Source: Candidatus Gastranaerophilales bacterium (GTDB lineage Bacteria; Cyanobacteriota; Vampirovibrionia; Gastranaerophilales; Gastranaerophilaceae). From it: 57,494 bases of DNA. The position numbers were made by a program, and so were the translations under genes. This document shows, in pieces, positions 3,544 through 50,364 of the stretch. The stretch spans positions 1 to 57,494 of the forward strand of contig CALUPN010000001.1 of assembly GCA_944322625.1 (NCBI GenBank). Reading direction: 5' to 3'. The notes under the pieces are model-generated. The model made no database searches. It was given only the letters and a program-made list of their open reading frames with translations, and was not told where the DNA came from. How positions within the stretch are numbered: the first letter of the stretch is position 1; the number at the start of each line of letters is the position of its first letter.

Positions 3544-3618
3544 ACGCTTGTCATCCAATGGTTAGGGTGCTGGTCTTATACACCAGTTATCTAGGTTCGA
3601 ATCCTAGCGAGCGTACCA
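3544..3618 (+). tRNA. tRNA-Ile(UAU)
   Basis: Acceptor ACGCTTG/CGAGCGT, anticodon arm CTGGT-CTTATAC-ACCAG, GGTTCGAATCC, CCA end. Confidence 0.9.
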
Positions 3619-3621
3619 AAT

Positions 3622-3695
3622 ACACGGATAATTTAAAGGTAGAATATTGATCTCCAAAATCAATTGTATAGGTTCGAGTCCTAGTCTGTGTGCCA
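3622..3695 (+). tRNA. tRNA-Trp(CCA)
   Basis: Acceptor ACACGGA/TCTGTGT, loop CTCCAAA, T arm, CCA. Confidence 0.9.
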
Positions 3696-3698
3696 TAT

Positions 3699-3775
3699 TG
3701 ACGAATGGAGAAATTGGTAAACTCACTGGTTTTTGGCACCAGTATTTGATAGTTCGAGTCTATCTTCGTCAGCCA
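3699..3775 (+). tRNA. tRNA-Gln(UUG)
   Basis: Acceptor TGACGAA/TTCGTCA, loop TTTTGGC, CCA. Confidence 0.9.
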
Positions 3776-3780
3776 TGTTT

Positions 3781-3857
3781 TGCGGGTTGGTAGAAGTGGT
3801 TATCTCGTCGCCCTCATAAGGCGAAGTTCGTTGGTTCGAATCCAACATCCGCAACCA
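3781..3857 (+). tRNA. tRNA-Met(CAU), initiator-like body
   Basis: Acceptor TGCGGGT/ATCCGCA, arm TCGCC-CTCATAA-GGCGA, CCA. Confidence 0.85.
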
Positions 3858-28695: not shown

Positions 28696-28772
28696 TGGAG
28701 CACCATACCCGAATTGCACGAGTGTCTATTTGATTTGCAGTCAAATCGGCTTCGCTTCTTGCCTAATGGTGC
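28696..28772 (-). tRNA. tRNA-Cys(GCA)
   Basis: Reverse strand acceptor GCACCAT/ATGGTGC, arm TTTGA-CTGCAAA-TCAAA, CCA; atypical T loop TGCAATT. Confidence 0.85.
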
Positions 28773-33121: not shown

Positions 33122-34204
33122 TTAATCTTCTCCTTTTTCTTTTACTTTTGTTAATCTGTATGTAATACTATCTTTCATATAATTTTCATATGTCTTTGGA
33201 TGGTCTTGCTTGAATAATTTTTCGTCAAATTTCTTGCTTACCGTCCCACTTAATTTATATGTTCCATATTGTACTTTTGTTTCATTTTCACCAAGCAATT
33301 CCATCATTTTTTCTTTAATTGAACTTTCCACAGTTTTTAATGTTTTTTCTAAATCATCAAGTGAATTATTCTTACGAATAGTATTAATTTCATCTTGTAA
33401 GAAACTTGCATAATTTATCAGAGAATCTAAATCATTATCGTTACCTGGTTGTGTTTCTCGCATGATGTCTAAGTATTCTTTGTCTTTTATTTCATCAAAT
33501 CTTGGTGAAACTCCATTTTCAATATGATTATTCCACCACTCCTCACAATATTTTATGATATCTTCAAATGTCATTAATTTTCCATTTACATCAACAACAA
33601 TATCTTTTAATTTCTTAACAACAATGATTGTATTTTTTTCTGTTGGCTTGAATTGTTCAGGATGATTGTAATCGTCATCTTGCAAGAAGGCACATATAAA
33701 CACGATACGATCAATACCTTTTAAGTAAGCATATTCTGCACCTTGTAACAAATATGTAATTGGAACATTATTGTTTTCCCATTCCTGTGGCTTTGAACTC
33801 GTCTTACATTCTATAATTGCCGTAAGTGTTTTCATATCATCTTCTGTACAAACGGCGTCCATTACACCACCGAAAACGTTGCTATCGTTTACAAAGTTAT
33901 TATATCTATATGTATCAATGTTATTTCCATAGTATTCTTCAATACTCATTGTATTTGGAAATTTTTTTGCAATTAAATCAATAAGTTTTGGCTCAATTGC
34001 TTTACCAGCCAAAGTATATTTGGTATCTTCAAACGGTAATTTTACTAACTTTGTAATTTCTGCCCAAGCACCGAATGGTGTTTGATACGGATTAAGTCCT
34101 AGAACACTAGCCATTCTATGACCAGTGATTCTAAGTCTTTGTTTTGGTGGTTCATTCAATACAATATGTTGTCTATCTTCCGAATAGTTCCATTCCTTAG
34201 CCAT
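33122..34204 (-). CDS. YqaJ/lambda-Exo-like exonuclease
   Basis: ASVLGLNPYQTP, G..IEP, D...IECKT. Confidence 0.85.
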   Translation of the reverse strand: MAKEWNYSEDRQHIVLNEPPKQRLRITGHRMASVLGLNPYQTPFGAWAEITKLVKLPFEDTKYTLAGKAIEPKLIDLIAKKFPNTMSIEEYYGNNIDTYRYNNFVNDSNVFGGVMDAVCTEDDMKTLTAIIECKTSSKPQEWENNNVPITYLLQGAEYAYLKGIDRIVFICAFLQDDDYNHPEQFKPTEKNTIIVVKKLKDIVVDVNGKLMTFEDIIKYCEEWWNNHIENGVSPRFDEIKDKEYLDIMRETQPGNDNDLDSLINYASFLQDEINTIRKNNSLDDLEKTLKTVESSIKEKMMELLGENETKVQYGTYKLSGTVSKKFDEKLFKQDHPKTYENYMKDSITYRLTKVKEKGED

Positions 34205-35048
34205 TATTTTCTACCTCTTTTAATTTCTTTTTTACTTTTAAATCAATTTCAAGAATATCTGCCGAACTTAATGTTCCGCTCATAAGTTTATTTAATGTTG
34301 GTGTTCCATATTCTTGATTACCAGTTAATTCTCTAATTTTCATAATATTTTCGCATACCGCTTTAATATCTTCTTCATCACTAGGTTCTTGTTGAACTTG
34401 TTTTACTACTTCTTGCTTAATTTCCTCTTTCTTTTTTTCTGGTACATATACAGGTACTTTTGGTTTTGATTTTTCTTCCGGTTCTTCAATCTCTTCCTCC
34501 AGAACATCTTTTGGTGTAAAGTTTTTATAGAACCAATTTCTAAACGCCATTGAACTTGCACTAGCAACCGCTTTGTCAATGGTATCACTACCTTGTGCAA
34601 TTGTGATATATTCTTTGCATGCTCCTGTTTCTAAATCTGTAAATGTTGCAACAGTTTTAACAGTTGCTACATGAATCGGAAGTGAGTTTGCAGGTTTTGT
34701 TAGTTCTTTATCAAATTGAATTAAATCTGTTGTTTCAAATGAGAAGTCAAGACCAACTTCAATTGCTAATTCTTGAATCGCATCATAGAATTGATCAATA
34801 CTATAATAATCTCCACCACCCAAAATCTTTGGTAATTCTTTATCTAGTACGAATTTTCTTTCTCTTACTCTCTTTCTAAATTCATTTAACTTTTTAAGTA
34901 ACATAACTTTCATTGTTCTTTCATCATATTCTTTTACTTCTTCCACCTTTTTACTTTCTCCTTTCATTTTATTTACCATGTCCATTAATTTTTCGTTCTG
35001 TTCCATGGACGTTTGTAATTTTTGCTCTAACTCTTGTTTTGTAGCCAT
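34197..35048 (-). CDS. ERF-like ssDNA annealing protein (internal start)
   Basis: Own promoter and AAAGGAG RBS before MATKQ; G.D..DKAV..A.S.A.R motif. Confidence 0.7.
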   Translation of the reverse strand: MATKQELEQKLQTSMEQNEKLMDMVNKMKGESKKVEEVKEYDERTMKVMLLKKLNEFRKRVRERKFVLDKELPKILGGGDYYSIDQFYDAIQELAIEVGLDFSFETTDLIQFDKELTKPANSLPIHVATVKTVATFTDLETGACKEYITIAQGSDTIDKAVASASSMAFRNWFYKNFTPKDVLEEEIEEPEEKSKPKVPVYVPEKKKEEIKQEVVKQVQQEPSDEEDIKAVCENIMKIRELTGNQEYGTPTLNKLMSGTLSSADILEIDLKVKKKLKEVENNG

Positions 35049-36014
35049 ATCTTTTTCTCCTTTCTGTATGTTATTATTGTAGCATAATATATCATAGTAG
35101 TCAATATTTTTTTTGTCATTTTCAATTATTTTTATTAGTTCTTCTTTTTTTGTACTTTTATCAACTTGTAATCCCAAATTGGAAGCAATCTGCAAAAGTT
35201 CTTCTTTCTTATATTCTTCAAGTCTTTTAATACCAAGGAAATCGTTTACCCGTTTGTTTGCTAAGTCAATATACCATTCTTTATTAATATCGTCAATCTT
35301 ACATTGATTTGCATTATCTACTATCGGATTCGGAGGTTGATTCGCCAAACTATCACGTCTACCATCCGGTTTTACTTTTATAATCGCACCACTTGAAATA
35401 TTACCTGCATAGATACGATTATTTCTTTGAAGTTCAATATCTCCATTTGGTGATTCTTGCACGCATTTTTCATAAGTAGAGCCAAGATGTGATATGATTT
35501 GGAAACGAAATATATCATCGCACTTATTAATTGTTTCCTCCGTTGGAATATCAAAAAGTAATTTTTTTAATATTGCTTCGGATACGATCGTCATAGAATT
35601 ACTTTTCAAATCATCTTTAAATTTGTAATGAAAAACGTGTTTTTCTTTATCCCATGTAAATATATGTTTTCCTGTGAAGTTTCCACCTTTATAGTTTACC
35701 TTGTAATCGTTATTTCCAGTCTGTACGATTTCGACGTAATTATTGACATCTCGCATGATTATTTTTACAACTTTATCTTCTTCTAATTCAAGTCCAGTTA
35801 GTTTTTGCCAATCGTCGAGTACTTTATGGGCTTGTTCTTTATATTCTTCATCTACTTCATATAAAATTGCATCTGTGTTGCAGCTAATTGTTTCCAATGT
35901 TGGTACTGTTTTTAAATCATATATTAATTGTAATATAAATAATTGTCCTGTGGTACATATACTAAATCCTTGTAAATTATCATATAAATCATTGAACTTC
36001 GCTCTAAGACCGCC
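34197..36014 (-). CDS. DNA polymerase (family B-like) C-terminal part, in frame with the ERF-like protein
   Basis: GGLRAKFNDLYD...GQL, NTDA motif C, RDVNNY; frame open upstream of track start 35897. Confidence 0.75.
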   Translation of the reverse strand, partial: GGLRAKFNDLYDNLQGFSICTTGQLFILQLIYDLKTVPTLETISCNTDAILYEVDEEYKEQAHKVLDDWQKLTGLELEEDKVVKIIMRDVNNYVEIVQTGNNDYKVNYKGGNFTGKHIFTWDKEKHVFHYKFKDDLKSNSMTIVSEAILKKLLFDIPTEETINKCDDIFRFQIISHLGSTYEKCVQESPNGDIELQRNNRIYAGNISSGAIIKVKPDGRRDSLANQPPNPIVDNANQCKIDDINKEWYIDLANKRVNDFLGIKRLEEYKKEELLQIASNLGLQVDKSTKKEELIKIIENDKKNIDYYDILCYNNNIQKGEKDMATKQELEQKLQTSMEQNEKLMDMVNKMKGESKKVEEVKEYDERTMKVMLLKKLNEFRKRVRERKFVLDKELPKILGGGDYYSIDQFYDAIQELAIEVGLDFSFETTDLIQFDKELTKPANSLPIHVATVKTVATFTDLETGACKEYITIAQGSDTIDKAVASASSMAFRNWFYKNFTPKDVLEEEIEEPEEKSKPKVPVYVPEKKKEEIKQEVVKQVQQEPSDEEDIKAVCENIMKIRELTGNQEYGTPTLNKLMSGTLSSADILEIDLKVKKKLKEVENNG

Positions 36015-36016
36015 AG

Positions 36017-36247
36017 TTAAGTGTACGCATTTAGGGGTAACTTAAGACCAGATTTTAAATCATCATTAGTAAGTCCTAAAGGCTTTAAAAAATCTTCTGT
36101 TAGTTTTCCTTTTTTTGCTTTCATACGCATAGAAAGCAAATTTACATAAGCATCCTTATCTTGTTGATTTCGACTCGAATAACCGTACAATCTTACTAAA
36201 TTAGGATAAAGTGAACTCACATCCCAGTTCTCCAAAATACGTGTCAT
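36017..36247 (-). CDS. DNA polymerase middle fragment (motif A and start of motif B)
   Basis: DVSSLYPN and KLPLNAY. Confidence 0.85.
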   Translation of the reverse strand: MTRILENWDVSSLYPNLVRLYGYSSRNQQDKDAYVNLLSMRMKAKKGKLTEDFLKPLGLTNDDLKSGLKLPLNAYT

Positions 36248-36855
36248 TATTCATCACCCCCATCCTCGACATACTCAAAAGACCATCCAAGATATTTCTT
36301 ATGTGTTTTGCATGATTCTGATATTCCTCCTCGTTTTGTTTTCACACAAAATATACCTAGTGAACAAGAAAAAATACTATCGAATAACAACACATTATCA
36401 TCTTTTTTTGCTATTACTTTTTTTGCTTTTATTTTACCTCTACCTTTAAATCTTCCATCATATTCATATTTATAATATTTCTCAGTGTTTTCTTTATTCG
36501 TTAACCATTGTAAGTTATCAACTCTATTATTTAATGAGTTATTATCTATATGGTCTGCTATTGGTTTATTTTCTGGATTATGGATAAATGCTTCGGCAAT
36601 CACTCTGTTAACTCGTCTATAATAATGTTTACCATGAGCTTTTAAATCAACTTGATAATAACCATCTTTTTTTAAAAGTTGTTTTAATATTCTTCCATTC
36701 TTAGAAGTACCATTTCTAGGTATTGTTTTTATTCTTCCATAGTTACTACATACATAACAATCTGGAGCATCTACAACTGGTTTCCAAATTTCATTAGGCA
36801 AATCTTCAAGATTAAGCCATCTATCAGTATTCACGTCAATATCGATTAATCGCAT
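36247..36855 (-). CDS. NUMOD4-HNH homing endonuclease inserted in the polymerase gene
   Basis: EIWKPV..Y.CSNYGRIK, DHIDNN..NN..NLQW. Confidence 0.9.
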   Translation of the reverse strand: MRLIDIDVNTDRWLNLEDLPNEIWKPVVDAPDCYVCSNYGRIKTIPRNGTSKNGRILKQLLKKDGYYQVDLKAHGKHYYRRVNRVIAEAFIHNPENKPIADHIDNNSLNNRVDNLQWLTNKENTEKYYKYEYDGRFKGRGKIKAKKVIAKKDDNVLLFDSIFSCSLGIFCVKTKRGGISESCKTHKKYLGWSFEYVEDGGDE

Positions 36856-37709
36856 TTGAAATCACATCCGTTATCATATTTATACGTGGTTAGTTTTGCA
36901 CCATGTATTCCACCATGACCCAATTGTATCACACATTCATCATACTGTAAAGATGGTGCTATACTTTCGTAGTTTAAATCATTATGCTTTATAACGTCAT
37001 CTATATAATTTAAGAAAGACTTCGGTATTTTCGATTTATCAACTTGCTTTGGATATACATACTTAAACGGATCATCATGATTCTTTCTTTTTGCTCCCAG
37101 TAACACTGATGTTAGTTTCGCATCAGTCAAACTCATTCCATATTTCAAATCCATTTTTCCAAGTCTTGCAATAATATATTTTGACTTATATTTATTTATC
37201 AACATTTCAAATATTGGAAACAATGCTTGAACATCACAAGTACAGTAATATAGTACTTCCTCATATTGTTCTTTCGTCCATTTTGTTGGTAAATCAAAAG
37301 GAACAGTTGTTTCAGTAATGTTTAACCTTAACGAGCCTTCCAATTCCTTTAAGGATTTCCTAGGAACAATTTCATTGAACAAATCCCACATGATTGGAAG
37401 TTCCATATATCCGCAATCAATATCCCAACCATTTCCTCCACCAATAATGTAATCGCTGACATCTTTTATTTCTTCTGGTGTATATCCCGCAAGCAAGCAT
37501 TTCAATATATACTTATCGTATGCGTTACAGTTATATCCCATAAGAATTGGTTTCTTTTGGTCTAAAAAATTTTGTACGTCATTTGGTAACGAATTATGAA
37601 AAACAAATCTTTCTTTTGTTCTATACGATATAAAAACAAATAGTGTATCGTGGGCAAACACTTCACAGTCGAATCCGTATAAGTTATCTAACAATTCATC
37701 GAAACTCAT
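36846..37709 (-). CDS. DNA polymerase N-terminal 3'-5' exonuclease fragment
   Basis: FDCEVF (ExoI), GYN..YD (ExoII), YC..DV (ExoIII), GGIHG. Confidence 0.85.
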   Translation of the reverse strand: MSFDELLDNLYGFDCEVFAHDTLFVFISYRTKERFVFHNSLPNDVQNFLDQKKPILMGYNCNAYDKYILKCLLAGYTPEEIKDVSDYIIGGGNGWDIDCGYMELPIMWDLFNEIVPRKSLKELEGSLRLNITETTVPFDLPTKWTKEQYEEVLYYCTCDVQALFPIFEMLINKYKSKYIIARLGKMDLKYGMSLTDAKLTSVLLGAKRKNHDDPFKYVYPKQVDKSKIPKSFLNYIDDVIKHNDLNYESIAPSLQYDECVIQLGHGGIHGAKLTTYKYDNGCDFKCD

Positions 37710-42781: not shown

Positions 42782-43642
42782 CTAATTTGCATTGATAAAT
42801 GGAATTGCACTATCTGTCATTGTTGTTGGTAACTGTCCGTTCCATTTTTCAATAAATTGTTGTGCTATGATTTGATCTGTCAATGATTGTTGCAACAAAG
42901 CATTTGCTTCTGCCTCACCTTGTGCCTCAACTTTTTTCTTTTCTGCGTCAATTTTAGCCTTTTCTAACTGATTCTTAGACGTTTCCACTTCTTGTTCTGC
43001 AACTGCCTTTTGTTCAATTGCTTGATTATATGATTCGCTAAAATCAAAATTATTAATTGAAACTGCTACACTATTAATTCCATACAATGAAATTCGTTCG
43101 TCTAATGTATTATTAATAGCAAGAGAAACATCACTACGTTTTGTAACCAATTCTTCTGCCGTATATTGTGAAATAACTGCCTTGATTGTTTCTTGAATTG
43201 CTGGTTCTAACACTGTTGTTTGATAATTAGTTCCAACAGTTTTGTATAAATCAACCGCTTTTGTTCCGTCAATCTGGTAATTGATAGAAACTTTGATGTT
43301 ATTTACAATTTGCAAATCTTTTGTTGACGTTGAAAATGCTTCCTCGTTTTCATACTTTTGTACCTTTACATTTATTTTTTTCATATCCTCAAAAGGTAGT
43401 TTGAAAACAATTCCTGTATCAGTTGTACTGCTCACAATTTCTCCAAATCTAACTTTGATCCCAACTTCGCCAGTTTTAATTGTTGTGAAACAACCGAAAA
43501 CGTTAAGTAGTAGGAATAAGAAACCAAGCAACATTCTTGGTCTTGCTTTCCACGAAATTGTTTCCGCATCTAAATCGATGCGTACACCTAAAACTAGAAC
43601 TGCTAAAATTGTCAAAATAACGCTTACAATAATTAAAATCAT
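42782..43642 (-). CDS. SPFH/prohibitin (band 7) membrane protein
   Basis: GEVG...FG, TKDLQ, AIEQK.VAEQ, EKWNGQLP. Confidence 0.9.
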   Translation of the reverse strand: MILIIVSVILTILAVLVLGVRIDLDAETISWKARPRMLLGFLFLLLNVFGCFTTIKTGEVGIKVRFGEIVSSTTDTGIVFKLPFEDMKKINVKVQKYENEEAFSTSTKDLQIVNNIKVSINYQIDGTKAVDLYKTVGTNYQTTVLEPAIQETIKAVISQYTAEELVTKRSDVSLAINNTLDERISLYGINSVAVSINNFDFSESYNQAIEQKAVAEQEVETSKNQLEKAKIDAEKKKVEAQGEAEANALLQQSLTDQIIAQQFIEKWNGQLPTTMTDSAIPFINAN

Positions 43643-45852: not shown

Positions 45853-47874
45853 CTAACTTAATAAATTTATGATCGTATCCTTTTGAATACTTTCAACAGA
45901 CAAATCAATATCAACTGGAACTTCTCTTGGTACTTTTGTTTCTGTGCCTAGTTCATCATATACTGTATCATATACTGTTACAGTTGGTTTATCGGTCAAG
46001 ATTGCTCCTGATTCTTTCAACAAATTATTCAATTTCAATTGTGTTTTGGAATATGCTTGTAAATAATCGAATACTCCCATTGTTATTTTATTTCTACTTG
46101 ACGTTGATACACTAAGTCCTGCTGTAAAATCATTGAAATAAAATCTAATAGTATCTCCAATGACGATAAATCCGACAATCTTTTGTCTTTCTGTATTCTT
46201 AACAACCATATCTACTTTTTCCAAGATATTGTTTGGATTAATTACATAGTTTCTTCTAATATCTGGTTGAAAATTATCAGATTTTGCAATCACAAATTCA
46301 AATGGAACATCTTTGCTATTATATGTGAACATGTTACATGTCACTAAGAATGCACTATGTCCATAGTTCTTTCCAACATAGAACAACTCTGTCGCACCGT
46401 TTGGTAACTTAGCATCTGTTATATCTCCACTAAACAATATATTAGATGAACTACTTCTATAACTAGCATCCCATCCGAATACTTCTGACTTATTCATTTG
46501 TTTTAAATCCAAATCAACTCGTTCTTCTGTTAATGTCCTAAATGTATTTGAATATGGAATAGTAGAACCATATCTTTCAAGATTTTTCCAATGTATTCCA
46601 TAGACCATATCAGATTCCCTTGGTACTTCCAAGTATGATCCTTGTGGAATATTTCCAGAAAATTGTTTTTCACTTGTAGGTGCGGAATATGTTACGTTTG
46701 ATGGAATATAAATAGTCTTTCCTTTTACTTTTTCGGAAACTCTATTTTCTAGATGTTTTCTGACAATTTCTGTTCTCTTAACAAGTGTTAAAAATCTATT
46801 TTCTCTTCTTTCATGTTTTAACGTACTAACATATGACTTTCCGTTTCTAATACGATAAACAATATTATCATTTCCACCTAACGCATAAAGCATGGCATTT
46901 AAGATACGAATTTCTCTGAAAATCGTTATATCATCAAGTTTTTTAGTTAGTTCTTCATCAGAAATTTCTACTTTTTCATCTGTTAAACAATCTAACACGT
47001 TCTTAGGAAGTGGTTTATGATTATCATCTGCTAGTTTTCTAAGTTTATTTATGACACCATTCAATTCTTTTCTAGTAGAACTTTTTTCACTTGTATTTTC
47101 ATCACATTTTTTTACTTTTAATGCTAAGAATAAATTCTTATTTCTTAAAAATATTGATGATAACTTTTCATAGCCTTTTGGTGTTTTTGTAAGATATGAT
47201 TGAATCATTCCCAATGCCAGTTTTTTATCACTTTTTCTAACCATTTCAATCATTTCTGAACTTTGTATTTTCAAAGTACTTCCAGTTAATTTGAACAACA
47301 AGTATTTGAAAAATTCGTCTGGATTACGAGGCATGATGTTATATTTATCATACAACGTTATCTTAACTTCTCGGTTCTTGATTTCGTCAAATCTATCTTT
47401 ATCGATAAAATCTGATAATACCATGATGTCTTTTACAGTTTGTTCTGACAATGCGATTCCACTTGTAAGTAGATTCATTATTTTATCAGTCAATTCTTGT
47501 TCTGTATATGGACGGATTGAAATAAATTCAATTTGTTCCGCATCAAGTTCTGGAATTTCTAACTTTTCTTTTGGAATATATACCAAATCACTATCATACA
47601 TTCCTAACGATTCGAAACCATAAGTTGTAATATAATGAATCATTTGTTGTGCAATCAAATCTTCAATTGGTGCGTTTTTTACAATCTCAAAATCTTTGTG
47701 AAATGTTTGATTCCATTTTTCACCGTTTTTTCCATACATTTCGATTGCATTTTTTACGGTTTCTTCATCTGCCGTGCTAGGAATCAATAGTCCATACTTT
47801 AAAGCATATTCGTTGATATTATCTGATTTTTCTCCTAAATATCCTTTAAATAATCTTAAAATTTCTTTTTTCAT
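45853..47874 (-). CDS. 673-aa protein: helical N-terminal region plus C-terminal TerD-like domain; candidate RNA-binding partner of the upstream array
   Basis: GIHW...VDLDL...GW...FSGDITDA..PNGATE resembles TerD-family motifs. Confidence 0.6.
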   Translation of the reverse strand: MKKEILRLFKGYLGEKSDNINEYALKYGLLIPSTADEETVKNAIEMYGKNGEKWNQTFHKDFEIVKNAPIEDLIAQQMIHYITTYGFESLGMYDSDLVYIPKEKLEIPELDAEQIEFISIRPYTEQELTDKIMNLLTSGIALSEQTVKDIMVLSDFIDKDRFDEIKNREVKITLYDKYNIMPRNPDEFFKYLLFKLTGSTLKIQSSEMIEMVRKSDKKLALGMIQSYLTKTPKGYEKLSSIFLRNKNLFLALKVKKCDENTSEKSSTRKELNGVINKLRKLADDNHKPLPKNVLDCLTDEKVEISDEELTKKLDDITIFREIRILNAMLYALGGNDNIVYRIRNGKSYVSTLKHERRENRFLTLVKRTEIVRKHLENRVSEKVKGKTIYIPSNVTYSAPTSEKQFSGNIPQGSYLEVPRESDMVYGIHWKNLERYGSTIPYSNTFRTLTEERVDLDLKQMNKSEVFGWDASYRSSSSNILFSGDITDAKLPNGATELFYVGKNYGHSAFLVTCNMFTYNSKDVPFEFVIAKSDNFQPDIRRNYVINPNNILEKVDMVVKNTERQKIVGFIVIGDTIRFYFNDFTAGLSVSTSSRNKITMGVFDYLQAYSKTQLKLNNLLKESGAILTDKPTVTVYDTVYDELGTETKVPREVPVDIDLSVESIQKDTIINLLS

Positions 47875-47901: not shown

Positions 47902-48333
47902 GTGTCGATAAGTAACAAAATAACCCAAAATTATTTGCCTACTGGCGAAATAGGAACTTACTATGACACTTTTATATAATTTTAAATACCGGTGAGTAAT
48001 CTTATCACTTAACAGGTAATCGCTCTCAAAGCAAAATAGGAACTCACTATGGCATTTTTATAAATATTAGTACCTGAAACTAATTTTCAGTGATGGAGCG
48101 GTATTTCCCGCAGTCTTAAGGAAGTTTCTATGACACTATATTTTTATTTTATGGCGAAGAGTAATAACCATTCTCCATTACTATTTGTTATAAAGGAACT
48201 CTTTATGCCAAAATATAATCAAAATATAAGACGGATAGTAATACACTAGACCACTATTAACCTTTCGGCTAATTGATGGAGTTGAACCATCAGCGTTGGT
48301 TATCAGCCAACAAAATAGGAACTATCTCTGTCT
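47902..48333 (-). ncRNA. Array of five structured RNA units with a conserved covarying stem and variable, partly tRNA-like inserts
   Basis: Units 48229-48333, 48152-48210, 48070-48136, 47987-48054, 47902-47969 share stem-AUA-helix-UCCU-[insert]-UU-helix-C-stem. Confidence 0.85.
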
Positions 48334-48341
48334 ATGTATAG

Positions 48342-48370
48342 ATTGTATCATAGTATAATTTAATAGTCAA
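48342..48370 (-). promoter_or_regulatory. Promoter for the RNA array and 673-aa gene
   Basis: TTGACT-17-TACAAT with TG; predicted +1 at the first unit. Confidence 0.8.
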
Positions 48371-48613: not shown

Positions 48614-49333
48614 CTAATCCAAGTCAGACCATATATAATCTGATAATAAATTTCTGAATATTGCTTGTAAAACATTAACAACTATACTATTACCAGCTTG
48701 TTTATATAATTGTGTATTGGAATTAACTTTTTCTGCTTTATCAAAATCTTCATCATCAAATCCCATAAGTCTCCAAGTTTCCTTTGGTGTTAATTTTCTT
48801 ATTCTTAAATTATTAGTTACGCAACCAATATCAGGGCTTGTTTTTAATGTTGGTATCATTTCTTTTTGAACTGTACCTCTTTTTTTATCTATATTTGATA
48901 TATAAACACCGTTACCGTCAGTTGCTTCTAAATAACCTTGTTTAGTAGCATTTTTTATTAATAATGTATTTCCACTCAAACTAGTAGAACCTATTTTTGT
49001 TGTTAAACAAGGTGACAATCCGTTTTTTCTTATTCTCAATCCTTCGTCATATCGATAGTCTGCAACTACACATTTAGGATCTTTCCAATCCCTAGCACAT
49101 AAAGTATCACAATATTCTTTTTCTTGGATACGTCTATTGTTCTGATGAAATGTACTACATCTTATTTTTTCAATTTGTTCATCACTCAAATAGTATTTTT
49201 CATCAACATCATCCTCAAGGATGTCTTTTAATTTTAATTTTAACTCTTGTTTTGGTGGGAAAATAAAATTTAATTTTTTTATCTTTCCTTGTTTTTCTAA
49301 ATCATTTAATATATCTTCACACTTTTTATACAT
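48614..49333 (-). CDS. C5 cytosine methyltransferase, C-terminal part (TRD, motifs IX-X)
   Basis: RKLTPKETWRLMGF, YKQAGNSIVV; AGGTGG RBS before ATG 49333. Confidence 0.85.
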   Translation of the reverse strand: MYKKCEDILNDLEKQGKIKKLNFIFPPKQELKLKLKDILEDDVDEKYYLSDEQIEKIRCSTFHQNNRRIQEKEYCDTLCARDWKDPKCVVADYRYDEGLRIRKNGLSPCLTTKIGSTSLSGNTLLIKNATKQGYLEATDGNGVYISNIDKKRGTVQKEMIPTLKTSPDIGCVTNNLRIRKLTPKETWRLMGFDDEDFDKAEKVNSNTQLYKQAGNSIVVNVLQAIFRNLLSDYIWSDLD

Positions 49334-49847
49334 ATATCCACCTGTAACCTTTAACACTTCTTCGTTTTCCTTTACAACACTCACATATACTAGAAGTACT
49401 TATATTATTTTCCCGTCCAGCATCACTCATAGATTGATAAATGGTTTTTACACCATCTTTATCTATTCTAGCCACTTTTACTCTTGTTACGGTTATCATT
49501 TGTTCCACGTTTTTATGTTTTTCAGTTGCATATTCTTTTTCTCTATTTTCTCTCCAAGTAACTATTCTCATATTATCAAAAGAATAACCCTTACTATCGT
49601 CTAACCTATCAATAGATGGTACATCATCACTATTATAATTATTTAATGTCCAATTTTTAAAAAGAGTTGTAAATTCATCATAATAATTATCAATAATCCA
49701 TTTTTCTAAATCCCACCTATCAAAAGTCAAATCTCTTCCAAATTTTACTCTTTCTCTTTGTTGCATTCTTTTATAATGTGTATTAAACCAACCTGTCAAG
49801 GTGTACTTCGTTTTATTATATAATTTTTTATCTCTACTGTTTCCCAT
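49326..49847 (-). CDS. HNH-type endonuclease (SIDR.D family) with NUMOD1-like tail
   Basis: PSIDRLDDSKGYSFDNMRIVT; YQSMSDA...ICECCKG. Confidence 0.8.
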   Translation of the reverse strand: MGNSRDKKLYNKTKYTLTGWFNTHYKRMQQRERVKFGRDLTFDRWDLEKWIIDNYYDEFTTLFKNWTLNNYNSDDVPSIDRLDDSKGYSFDNMRIVTWRENREKEYATEKHKNVEQMITVTRVKVARIDKDGVKTIYQSMSDAGRENNISTSSICECCKGKRRSVKGYRWIYV

Positions 49848-50364
49848 CTTCTCTCACTCCTATAATAAAAATACGTTCTCTATGTTGGGGAATAGGGTCT
49901 GGATATCCTACTTCACAAGCATTTAACACATCCATAGTTACTTTATAACCATTGTCATTTAAAAAACTCAAATATTCCTCTAGTTGTGGTCTAAATCTTT
50001 CAGATAATATATTTTTAACATTTTCAGCGATTACATACTTGGGTTTTAACTTACTTATAATTCTCATCATCTCATACATTAATCCACTTCTAGTTTCACC
50101 TTTTATTATACCAGTTTGTTTGCCAGCTAGACTAATATCTTGACAAGGAAAACCACCACATAATAAATCAATATCTACATCTTTATCCCATTTGCAAATG
50201 TCTTGTGGTTCAAAGTTTGTATTATGAATAGCATTAAAACTTTTTACTGCATACTTATCTATTTCCACATAATCCACAATCTCAAAATCTATCCCTAATC
50301 TTTCAAGTGCTTTACTACAAGCACCTATTCCACCGAAAAGTTCTAATATTTTTAAAGTTTTCAA
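49834..50364 (-). CDS. dcm: C5 cytosine methyltransferase, N-terminal part (motifs I-VIII)
   Basis: ELFGGIG, GGFPCQD, ENV, QHRERIF. Confidence 0.9.
   Translation of the reverse strand: MKTLKILELFGGIGACSKALERLGIDFEIVDYVEIDKYAVKSFNAIHNTNFEPQDICKWDKDVDIDLLCGGFPCQDISLAGKQTGIIKGETRSGLMYEMMRIISKLKPKYVIAENVKNILSERFRPQLEEYLSFLNDNGYKVTMDVLNACEVGYPDPIPQHRERIFIIGVREDGKQ

What the first reader, a model, noticed from the sequence alone, without database searches (positions are those of the whole stretch)
47902..48370. Array of five structured RNAs with a shared covarying stem, transcribed with a 673-aa TerD-like protein: candidate new RNP system
Seen: on the minus strand a TTGACT-17-TACAAT promoter fires directly into five units separated by A/U spacers. 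Each unit reads 4-5 bp stem, AUA (AGA in unit 1), 6-bp helix, UCCU, variable insert (75, 29, 35, 38, 36 nt), UU, complementary helix strand, C (A in unit 3), closing stem. The 6-bp helices differ but always pair: GAUAGU/ACUAUC, AAGAGU/ACUCUU, GAAACU/AGUUUC, GUGAGU/ACUCAC, GUAAGU/ACUUAU. This is compensatory covariation around near-invariant unpaired motifs. The array ends 27 nt before the ATG of the 673-aa gene. Known: Ro60/TROVE proteins bind a conserved bulged stem of co-transcribed Y RNAs that carry variable effector modules. Inference: the stem is a protein-binding handle and the inserts are interchangeable payloads. It is not a CRISPR array, and I do not recognise it as a described family.
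Basis: partly seen in the sequence, partly recalled or inferred. Interest (0 to 1): 0.95.

Follow-up and report, generated by a model that had tools for sequence, protein, structure and literature searches.

The report
Phage RNA array displaying tRNA parts
A gut phage carries five small folded RNAs that share one fixed stem and display different pieces of tRNA; this RNA family travels with one unstudied protein family in many phages and bacteria, and the pair likely forms an RNA-protein particle that would act as bait for host defences that attack tRNAs.

Summary
The five units are real, and they belong to a widespread RNA family with no Rfam match. Units lie within 1.5 kb of the partner gene in 96 of 111 non-redundant loci. 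The variable helix pairs are 92% Watson-Crick, against 45% for shuffled partners. Units also occur downstream of the gene or far from it on the same genome, so they likely act in trans. The inserts are often tRNA parts: permuted T/D elbows as in YrlA, real anticodon stem-loops (31 of 291 inserts vs about 2 by chance, mostly Lys-UUU, Asn-GUU and Ile-GAU), and acceptor-stem-NCCA ends (16 vs about 2). In this window, unit 1 shows an Ile anticodon arm plus a T-arm, unit 3 a Gly-like acceptor end and unit 4 an Asn anticodon arm. The protein has a helical region with no clear structural match plus a TerD domain. It is related to the SCO0854 family, whose genes carry a variant stem, and shows no detectable TROVE homology. 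Best model: a protein-stabilised panel of tRNA decoys against tRNA-targeting defences (0.45). Transcription, binding and function are untested.

The parts
48342..48370 (-). sigma70-type promoter-like site (TTGACT-17-TACAAT, extended TG) just upstream of unit 1
   Evidence: consensus match only; similar sites ahead of arrays in relatives
48229..48333 (-). Unit 1: handle plus 75-nt insert with an Ile(GAU) anticodon stem-loop (48296-48310), a T-arm (48274-48292), a GAAA-capped hairpin in the acceptor-stem position (48256-48273) and a D-loop-like stretch (48246-48255); a reduced permuted tRNA mimic
   Evidence: loop identical to the tRNA-Ile(GAU) loop of the assembly G000; fuller permuted versions in L021 and L077; the D-loop reading is by eye
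48152..48210 (-). Unit 2: handle plus 29-nt insert with two UGGN words; payload not assigned
   Evidence: AUGG(G)UU recurs in several close relatives; family-wide TGG enrichment is inconclusive
48070..48136 (-). Unit 3: handle plus 35-nt insert with an acceptor-stem microhelix followed by U-CCA (48094-48111), tRNA-Gly-like
   Evidence: covarying equivalents in L005, L021 and L007; matches the top 4 bp and discriminator of the three tRNA-Gly genes in G000
47986..48055 (-). Unit 4: handle plus 38-nt insert with an Asn(GUU) anticodon stem-loop (48004-48020)
   Evidence: the Asn loop is the top enriched 7-mer in family inserts (10 vs 0.4 expected); the minimum-energy fold pairs this insert differently
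47902..47969 (-). Unit 5: handle plus 36-nt insert with a 7-nt loop hairpin (47918-47936) resembling a Gln(UUG) anticodon arm; ends 10 nt before the Shine-Dalgarno site
   Evidence: weaker assignment, the loop was seen in only a few ARAGORN tRNA calls
45853..47874 (-). 673-aa partner protein: N-terminal helical region (about 1-400) with no clear structural match, then a TerD domain (about 416-605); distant homolog of the MXAN_6230/SCO0854 family without the RING finger

Best explanation
The array likely yields small RNAs whose shared stem is predicted to be bound by the adjacent TerD-domain protein, so that each particle would display a different tRNA part (anticodon arm, elbow or CCA end) as a decoy that would likely distract or trap host tRNA-attacking defence enzymes during infection. 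Shown: the RNA fold is conserved by covariation, it is linked to the protein family, the handle changes together with the protein subfamily, and the inserts are enriched for tRNA parts. Inferred: transcription from the upstream promoter; cutting in the A/U spacers; protein binding to the A-N-A bulge, UCCU and the C bulge, which would stabilise the fold and protect the ends; and the decoy role. My odds: the RNA-protein particle exists, about 0.9; decoy or counter-defence is its main role, about 0.45.
For: (1) Covariation without requiring pairing: 91.7% Watson-Crick in 231 units vs 44.8% for shuffled partners (max 49.6% in 2000 shuffles) and 51.2% for partners swapped within a locus; 55 different helices; G-U pairs 40 vs A-C 10. 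(2) Linkage both ways: 96 of 111 gene loci have units; 73 of 108 motif-first viral loci have the gene on the same strand within the flank; of 10 of the other 35 checked, 7 have the full gene elsewhere on the record, 1 has a short match, and 2 are fragments 20% and 6% complete. (3) 9 of 10 bacterial SCO0854-type loci carry a variant handle on the sense strand, so the handle differs with the protein subfamily. (4) Among 339 non-redundant inserts: 23 permuted tRNA-like, 5 in normal order, 20 T-arm only; among the 291 without a T-arm, 31 carry real anticodon loops in hairpins (shuffles 2.2 +/- 1.4, reverse strand 2) and 16 carry a stem plus NCCA (1.8 +/- 1.3). (5) Lys-UUU is the commonest loop (9 of 39); tRNA-Lys is the target of PARIS AriB (PMC11464382, passages) and phage tRNA-Lys rescues from PrrC (PMC11555353, passages). 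(6) Contigs of close relatives replace the region of units 2-3 with other sequence, as expected in an arms race. (7) The family is mostly viral in the Atlas clusters, and 36 of 111 loci have tRNA genes in their flanks.
Against: Only 93 of 339 inserts have a recognisable tRNA part; most are short A/U-rich loops. Cleavable decoys are few against the host tRNA pool unless they trap the enzyme. Published phage escapes work by supplying functional or cleavage-resistant tRNAs: changing the anticodon or stem-loops abolished rescue in PMC11555353 (passages). The family also sits in bacterial genomes. The handle is not the free minimum-energy fold in units 1-3. The Lys/Asn/Ile bias may reflect A/U richness or the shared U36-A37-A38 motif (24 of 39 loops have U36) rather than nuclease targets.
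Confidence: 0.45

Rival explanations
1. Y-RNA-like tether or gate: the handle binds the protein and the tRNA-like inserts recruit host RNA enzymes (PNPase, RNase P, CCA-adding enzyme, ligases, modification enzymes) to build an RNA repair or degradation machine, as Ro60/YrlA does.
For: Same permuted T-acceptor-D order as YrlA (PMC4201824, parts 1-2 of 5 read); phage Ro60/Yrl binds PNPase (PMC12135203, abstract and part 1 of 6); genes often lie in tRNA clusters.
Against: No conserved protein neighbours such as RNA ligases: the largest flanking family covers 5 of 111 loci. A tether would not need many different anticodon loops or rapid unit turnover. No TROVE homology.
Confidence: 0.25
2. Tripwire sensor, in the logic of type III toxin-antitoxin systems: the RNAs keep the protein inactive, and cleavage of a displayed tRNA part releases or activates it (for example for superinfection exclusion or a stress response).
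For: RNA array directly ahead of a protein gene; bait-like inserts; TerD is a ligand-binding domain tied to anti-phage stress systems (PMC7824862, passage).
Against: No terminator-like site between array and gene; units are not near-identical repeats; no PADLOC match for the window protein; units can lie tens of kb from the gene.
Confidence: 0.15
3. Cis-only autoregulation: the protein binds repeated operators in its own leader, and the inserts are relics of nearby tRNA genes.
For: The last unit often ends just before the Shine-Dalgarno site; many loci lie in tRNA clusters.
Against: Arrays lie only downstream in L023, L025, L129 and L063 and far away in large phages; permuted tRNA order with capped acceptor stems is not simple decay. 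Autoregulation by the last unit may still be a side role.
Confidence: 0.07
4. The inserts are guides that base-pair with targets, such as tRNA 3' CCA ends through UGGN (T-box-like) or foreign nucleic acid.
For: TGG occurs in 106 of 291 inserts vs 54 in base-shuffled inserts; unit 2 has two UGGN words.
Against: No excess over dinucleotide shuffles (105); no significant match of the five inserts elsewhere in G000 (best E 0.11); insert lengths vary widely, from under 20 to over 100 nt.
Confidence: 0.08

Closest known systems
Bacterial and phage Ro60 (Rsr, TROVE + vWA) with Y RNAs YrlA/YrlB/Yrn1
   Same: Small RNAs next to a large helical protein gene; a terminal bulged stem as the presumed protein site; a permuted tRNA-like domain in T-acceptor-D order; found in phages (PMC4201824, PMC12135203).
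   Different: Protein has no detectable TROVE homology and carries TerD rather than vWA; handle motif is A-N-A/UCCU/C rather than GNCGAA; arrays of up to 7-8 units with isolated anticodon arms and CCA-end mimics; the handle's 5' half was not found in 25 TROVE loci.
MXAN_6230/SCO0854 RING-domain family (NCBIfam NF041916; Pfam Prok-RING_4)
   Same: Homologous over 564 columns (HHalign 98.5%); the 10 bacterial loci examined mostly carry a variant handle.
   Different: The phage protein lacks the RING finger and scores 11.9 bits against a cut-off of 600. I recall that Pfam describes this family as having ROT/TROVE-like repeats and TerD with a possible RNA-processing role; this was not checked, and I found no RNA partner in print.
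Phage tRNA genes that counter PARIS, PrrC and retron Eco7
   Same: Phage-encoded tRNA-related RNAs with anticodons that defence nucleases target.
   Different: Those are full tRNAs that restore translation; these are tRNA fragments fixed on a handle and mostly cannot translate.
Type III toxin-antitoxin systems and TIGR-Tas arrays (recalled)
   Same: Tandem RNA units encoded ahead of their partner protein.
   Different: No near-identical repeats or intervening terminator; no fixed-length spacers or box C/D motifs; no ToxN or Nop domain found.

Membership tests
Ro60/Y RNA | Partner protein has a TROVE domain (sequence profile) | tested here: not met
   No Pfam TROVE hit; HHalign vs an alignment of 23 TROVE proteins gives probability 0.1, like the reversed control (shallow template)
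Ro60/Y RNA | Ro-like HEAT-repeat ring fold | tested here: inconclusive
Ro60/Y RNA | C-terminal vWA domain | tested here: not met
Ro60/Y RNA | GNCGAA motif near the RNA 5' end | tested here: not met
   0 of 231 units have it in the first 36 nt examined; no YrlA/YrlB/Y_RNA Rfam hit
Ro60/Y RNA | Permuted tRNA-like domain (T, acceptor, D order) in at least one RNA | tested here: met
   23 of 339 inserts; T-arm units in 22 of 91 loci; reduced form in window unit 1. Not present in most loci
Ro60/Y RNA | Direct protein binding to the stem; PNPase recruitment | not testable with these tools
   needs biochemistry
MXAN_6230/SCO0854 family | Score above the NCBIfam cut-off, with RING finger | tested here: not met
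   11.9 bits vs 600; still homologous in the core
Type III toxin-antitoxin | Near-identical RNA repeats, a terminator, and a ToxN/CptN/TenpN endoribonuclease | tested here: not met
   Inserts unrelated to each other; no terminator-like site on the minus strand; no Pfam or PADLOC hit
CRISPR or TIGR guide arrays | Constant-length spacers that match targets | tested here: not met
   Insert lengths vary widely; no significant match in G000; matches to other phages were not searched

The most novel reading that the evidence does not exclude
A widespread phage counter-defence particle in which one protein carries an exchangeable panel of tRNA-part baits (anticodon arms, elbows, CCA ends) that trap or exhaust tRNA-targeting immune effectors. 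The array would be a readable record of which tRNA attacks each phage lineage meets, and a natural modular RNA-display scaffold.
Probability: 0.4. Interest if true: 0.95.

Novelty: categorically new. Interest (0 to 1): 0.85.

Why it matters
Many bacterial defences kill infected cells by cutting or blocking tRNAs. The phage answers I found in print are spare or resistant tRNAs. An RNA-protein particle that displays tRNA parts would be a new anti-defence strategy, and its arrays would predict which tRNAs are targeted in uncultured hosts. Even under the tether model, it would be a second Y-RNA-like particle with an apparently unrelated protein, and it would give the large uncharacterised SCO0854-related family (1425 clusters at 50% identity) its first ligand. 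The handle is short and exactly defined, so binding is directly testable. If the helical region turns out to be a remote Ro ring, the class drops to a new variant of Ro/Y RNA.

Tried and rejected
Rfam: no hit to the array at gathering score or at E up to 10 apart from two chance matches. In 16 related loci only tRNA and tmRNA matched; a few normal-order tRNA-like inserts score as tRNA. Pfam, PHROGs, PADLOC and PDB sequence searches gave nothing significant for the protein. Fold searches of the N-terminal 400 residues gave no clear match, and Ro60 was not listed; weak Foldseek rows to unrelated large proteins were treated as noise. Expression: no RNA holder was listed; the runs laid were contigs, probably DNA, so nothing is shown about transcription. 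Conserved protein neighbours: none. CCA-pairing through UGG: inconclusive. DNA-level hairpin or recombination sites: rejected because of the G-U over A-C bias, tetraloop hairpins (37 vs 14 in shuffles, 9 on the reverse strand), tRNA-part inserts and no linked recombinase. The base-pair probability printed for unit 5 is invalid (indexing error at a G-U pair); one search is used instead. No calibrated covariance model or R-scape run was made. Literature: the ten searches found no description of this RNA or pairing. Burroughs and Aravind 2016 (NAR 44:8525) and Anantharaman 2012 (Ter systems) are not held; they or their supplements may mention this protein family and a predicted RNA. Large candidate-RNA catalogues outside Rfam were not checked.

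Full report
Context. The window is the whole contig G000:C1, with a 77-nt terminal repeat. It carries terminase, portal, capsid, tape-measure, tail and polymerase genes and five tRNAs: a probably complete tailed phage binned into a 2.1-Mb bacterial assembly. Near relatives occur in chicken-gut data sets.

Observation. The promoter is a 10/12 consensus match in a region where such matches are common (28 found, 27.6 expected), so it rests on position. No terminator-like site lies between array and gene. Rfam has no match. Folded alone, units 4 and 5 form the handle; units 1-3 prefer other folds by 2-3 kcal/mol. This counts against a free-standing structure and fits a protein-stabilised one.

Family. 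The protein has 1021 relatives in the word-indexed search and 1425 clusters at 50% identity. I fetched 145 loci from viral contigs, genome contigs and three GenBank phages. With the window, they reduce to 111 below 90% identity. A pairing-based descriptor finds units within 1.5 kb of the gene in 96 of 111; 6 of the 15 misses have under 500 bases upstream. Positions the descriptor left free are conserved: A-N-A bulge 234 of 250, C bulge 238 of 250, U before the 3' strand 244 of 250. A sequence-only descriptor gives 249 5' halves near genes (79 per 100 kb), 11 farther away (2.1) and 8 on the other strand (1.0). In the 231 with a sequence-only 3' half, the four free helix pairs are 91.7% Watson-Crick, against 44.8% for shuffled partners (max 49.6% in 2000) and 51.2% for partners swapped within a locus; G-U pairs outnumber A-C 40 to 10. 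Loci are related, so these are not independent draws; the within-locus swap is the control least affected.

Linkage from the RNA side. One exact handle pattern hit 108 viral loci; 99 have a paired helix and 73 have the gene on the same strand within the fetched flank. I checked 10 of the other 35: 7 records hold the full gene elsewhere, 1 a short match, and the 2 blanks are fragments 20% and 6% complete. Arrays lie only downstream in L023, L025, L129 and L063. The units therefore likely act in trans. Ten bacterial loci found with NF041916 encode proteins homologous to this one over 564 columns (HHalign 98.5%). Nine of the ten carry a variant handle (CUAU, 9-bp helix, UCCU, 5-nt bulge) on the sense strand, none on the antisense strand (descriptor written after seeing the loci). 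Handle and protein subfamily differ together, which points to direct recognition.

Inserts. Pooling all loci except the SCO0854-type and TROVE ones gave 447 distinct inserts, 339 below 80% similarity. Of these, 23 are permuted tRNA-like domains (T-arm, capped acceptor stem, D-arm), 5 are in normal order, 20 have a T-arm only and 3 a D-arm only. Among the 291 without a T-arm, 31 hold a hairpin whose 7-nt loop is a real tRNA anticodon loop (dinucleotide shuffles 2.2 +/- 1.4, max 6 in 60; reverse strand 2), and 16 hold a stem followed by NCCA (1.8 +/- 1.3; reverse strand 3). Loop counts over all 339: Lys-UUU 9, Asn-GUU 7, Ile-GAU 6, Leu-UAA 4, others 1-2 (39 in all). Only 93 of 339 show any tRNA part. 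An unbiased k-mer count on the gene-anchored set put the Asn loop first and a Lys-loop word among the top three. In the window: unit 1 is an Ile arm, T-arm, GAAA hairpin and D-loop-like stretch; unit 3 is a microhelix with U-CCA matching the top of the assembly's tRNA-Gly genes (that assembly may not be the true host); unit 4 is an Asn arm; unit 5 is a Gln-like loop (weak); unit 2 is unassigned. Contigs of close relatives keep unit 1's start and the gene-proximal units but replace 48082-48267 with other sequence.

Protein. The AlphaFold model is confident (pLDDT 95, pTM 0.93). Residues 416-605 match TerD, and acidic residues D456, D484 and E496 are invariant in 150 sequences. The helical region has invariant or nearly invariant basic and aromatic residues (H59, K60, H80, Y81, R190, R244, K246, R343) that could contact RNA (inference), and no clear fold match. 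It shows no profile similarity to TROVE proteins (probability 0.1). Several of the genomes with SCO0854-type genes also hold separate TROVE genes. No protein neighbour is conserved; tRNA genes flank 36 of 111 loci.

Mechanism. Shown: conserved RNA fold, two-way linkage, handle differing with subfamily, tRNA-part enrichment, unit turnover. Inferred: transcription, processing in A/U spacers, binding, and function. I favour a panel of tRNA decoys against tRNA-targeting defences (0.45), because several different anticodon arms and CCA ends, exchanged between strains, fit bait better than a single tether. Against it: most inserts are unassigned, cleavable decoys are outnumbered by host tRNAs, and published escapes use functional tRNAs (PMC11555353 and PMC11464382, passages). 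Rivals: Y-RNA-like tether (0.25), tripwire (0.15), guide pairing (0.08), cis-only control (0.07).

Comparison and novelty. In layout it works like Ro60/YrlA (PMC4201824, parts 1-2 of 5; PMC12135203, abstract and part 1 of 6) and shares YrlA's permuted tRNA order. It fails the tested membership features (TROVE profile, vWA domain, GNCGAA motif); the ring fold is inconclusive. PMC7824862 (passages) mentions phage ROT/TROVE and TerD separately, not this pairing; PMC13056530 was seen as abstract and outline only. Ten literature searches found no description. Two Aravind-group papers most likely to touch this family could not be read, and I recall that the family was once described as ROT/TROVE-like, so a downgrade to a variant of Ro/Y RNA is possible. 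Four earlier notes of this scan describe the same system in other genomes; they agree but are not independent evidence, and this locus is a further instance of it.

Noticed in passing
window 48614-50364 (-): A C5 DNA methyltransferase is split into two ORFs (Pfam positions 1-164 and 162-322) by a 173-aa NUMOD/I-HmuI-like ORF at 49326-49847; possible intron or homing-endonuclease insertion.
   Followed up: no
window 34197-37709 (-): The DNA polymerase is split into two ORFs (PHROG 1252 positions 53-344 and 451-660) with a 202-aa ORF between them; possible intron or insertion.
   Followed up: no
window 3544-3857 and 28696-28772: Phage tRNAs Ile(UAU), Trp, Gln(UUG), Met and Cys; Ile with a UAU anticodon is unusual in bacteria.
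   Followed up: no
window 42782-43642 (-): Band-7/SPFH gene 2 kb downstream of the partner gene; shared with only 1 of the other 110 loci.
   Followed up: partly
L146-L155: Bacterial SCO0854-type genes carry a variant handle RNA next to the gene in 9 of 10 loci, some in tandem pairs.
   Followed up: yes
L072 and L077 upstream of the gene; L117 2352-2579: Some units enclose a whole tRNA-like domain in normal order, ending in CCA inside the handle.
   Followed up: partly
L169, L170, L202, L213, L227: In large phages, units are scattered away from the gene, often between small ORFs or tRNA genes; some inserts fuse a D-loop-like piece to an anticodon-like arm.
   Followed up: partly
L119, L120 (cyanophages S-CBWM1, S-CRM01): Cultured phages carry the gene inside tRNA clusters with units beside it (L120: four upstream, one permuted tRNA-like); these are ready experimental models.
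   Followed up: partly
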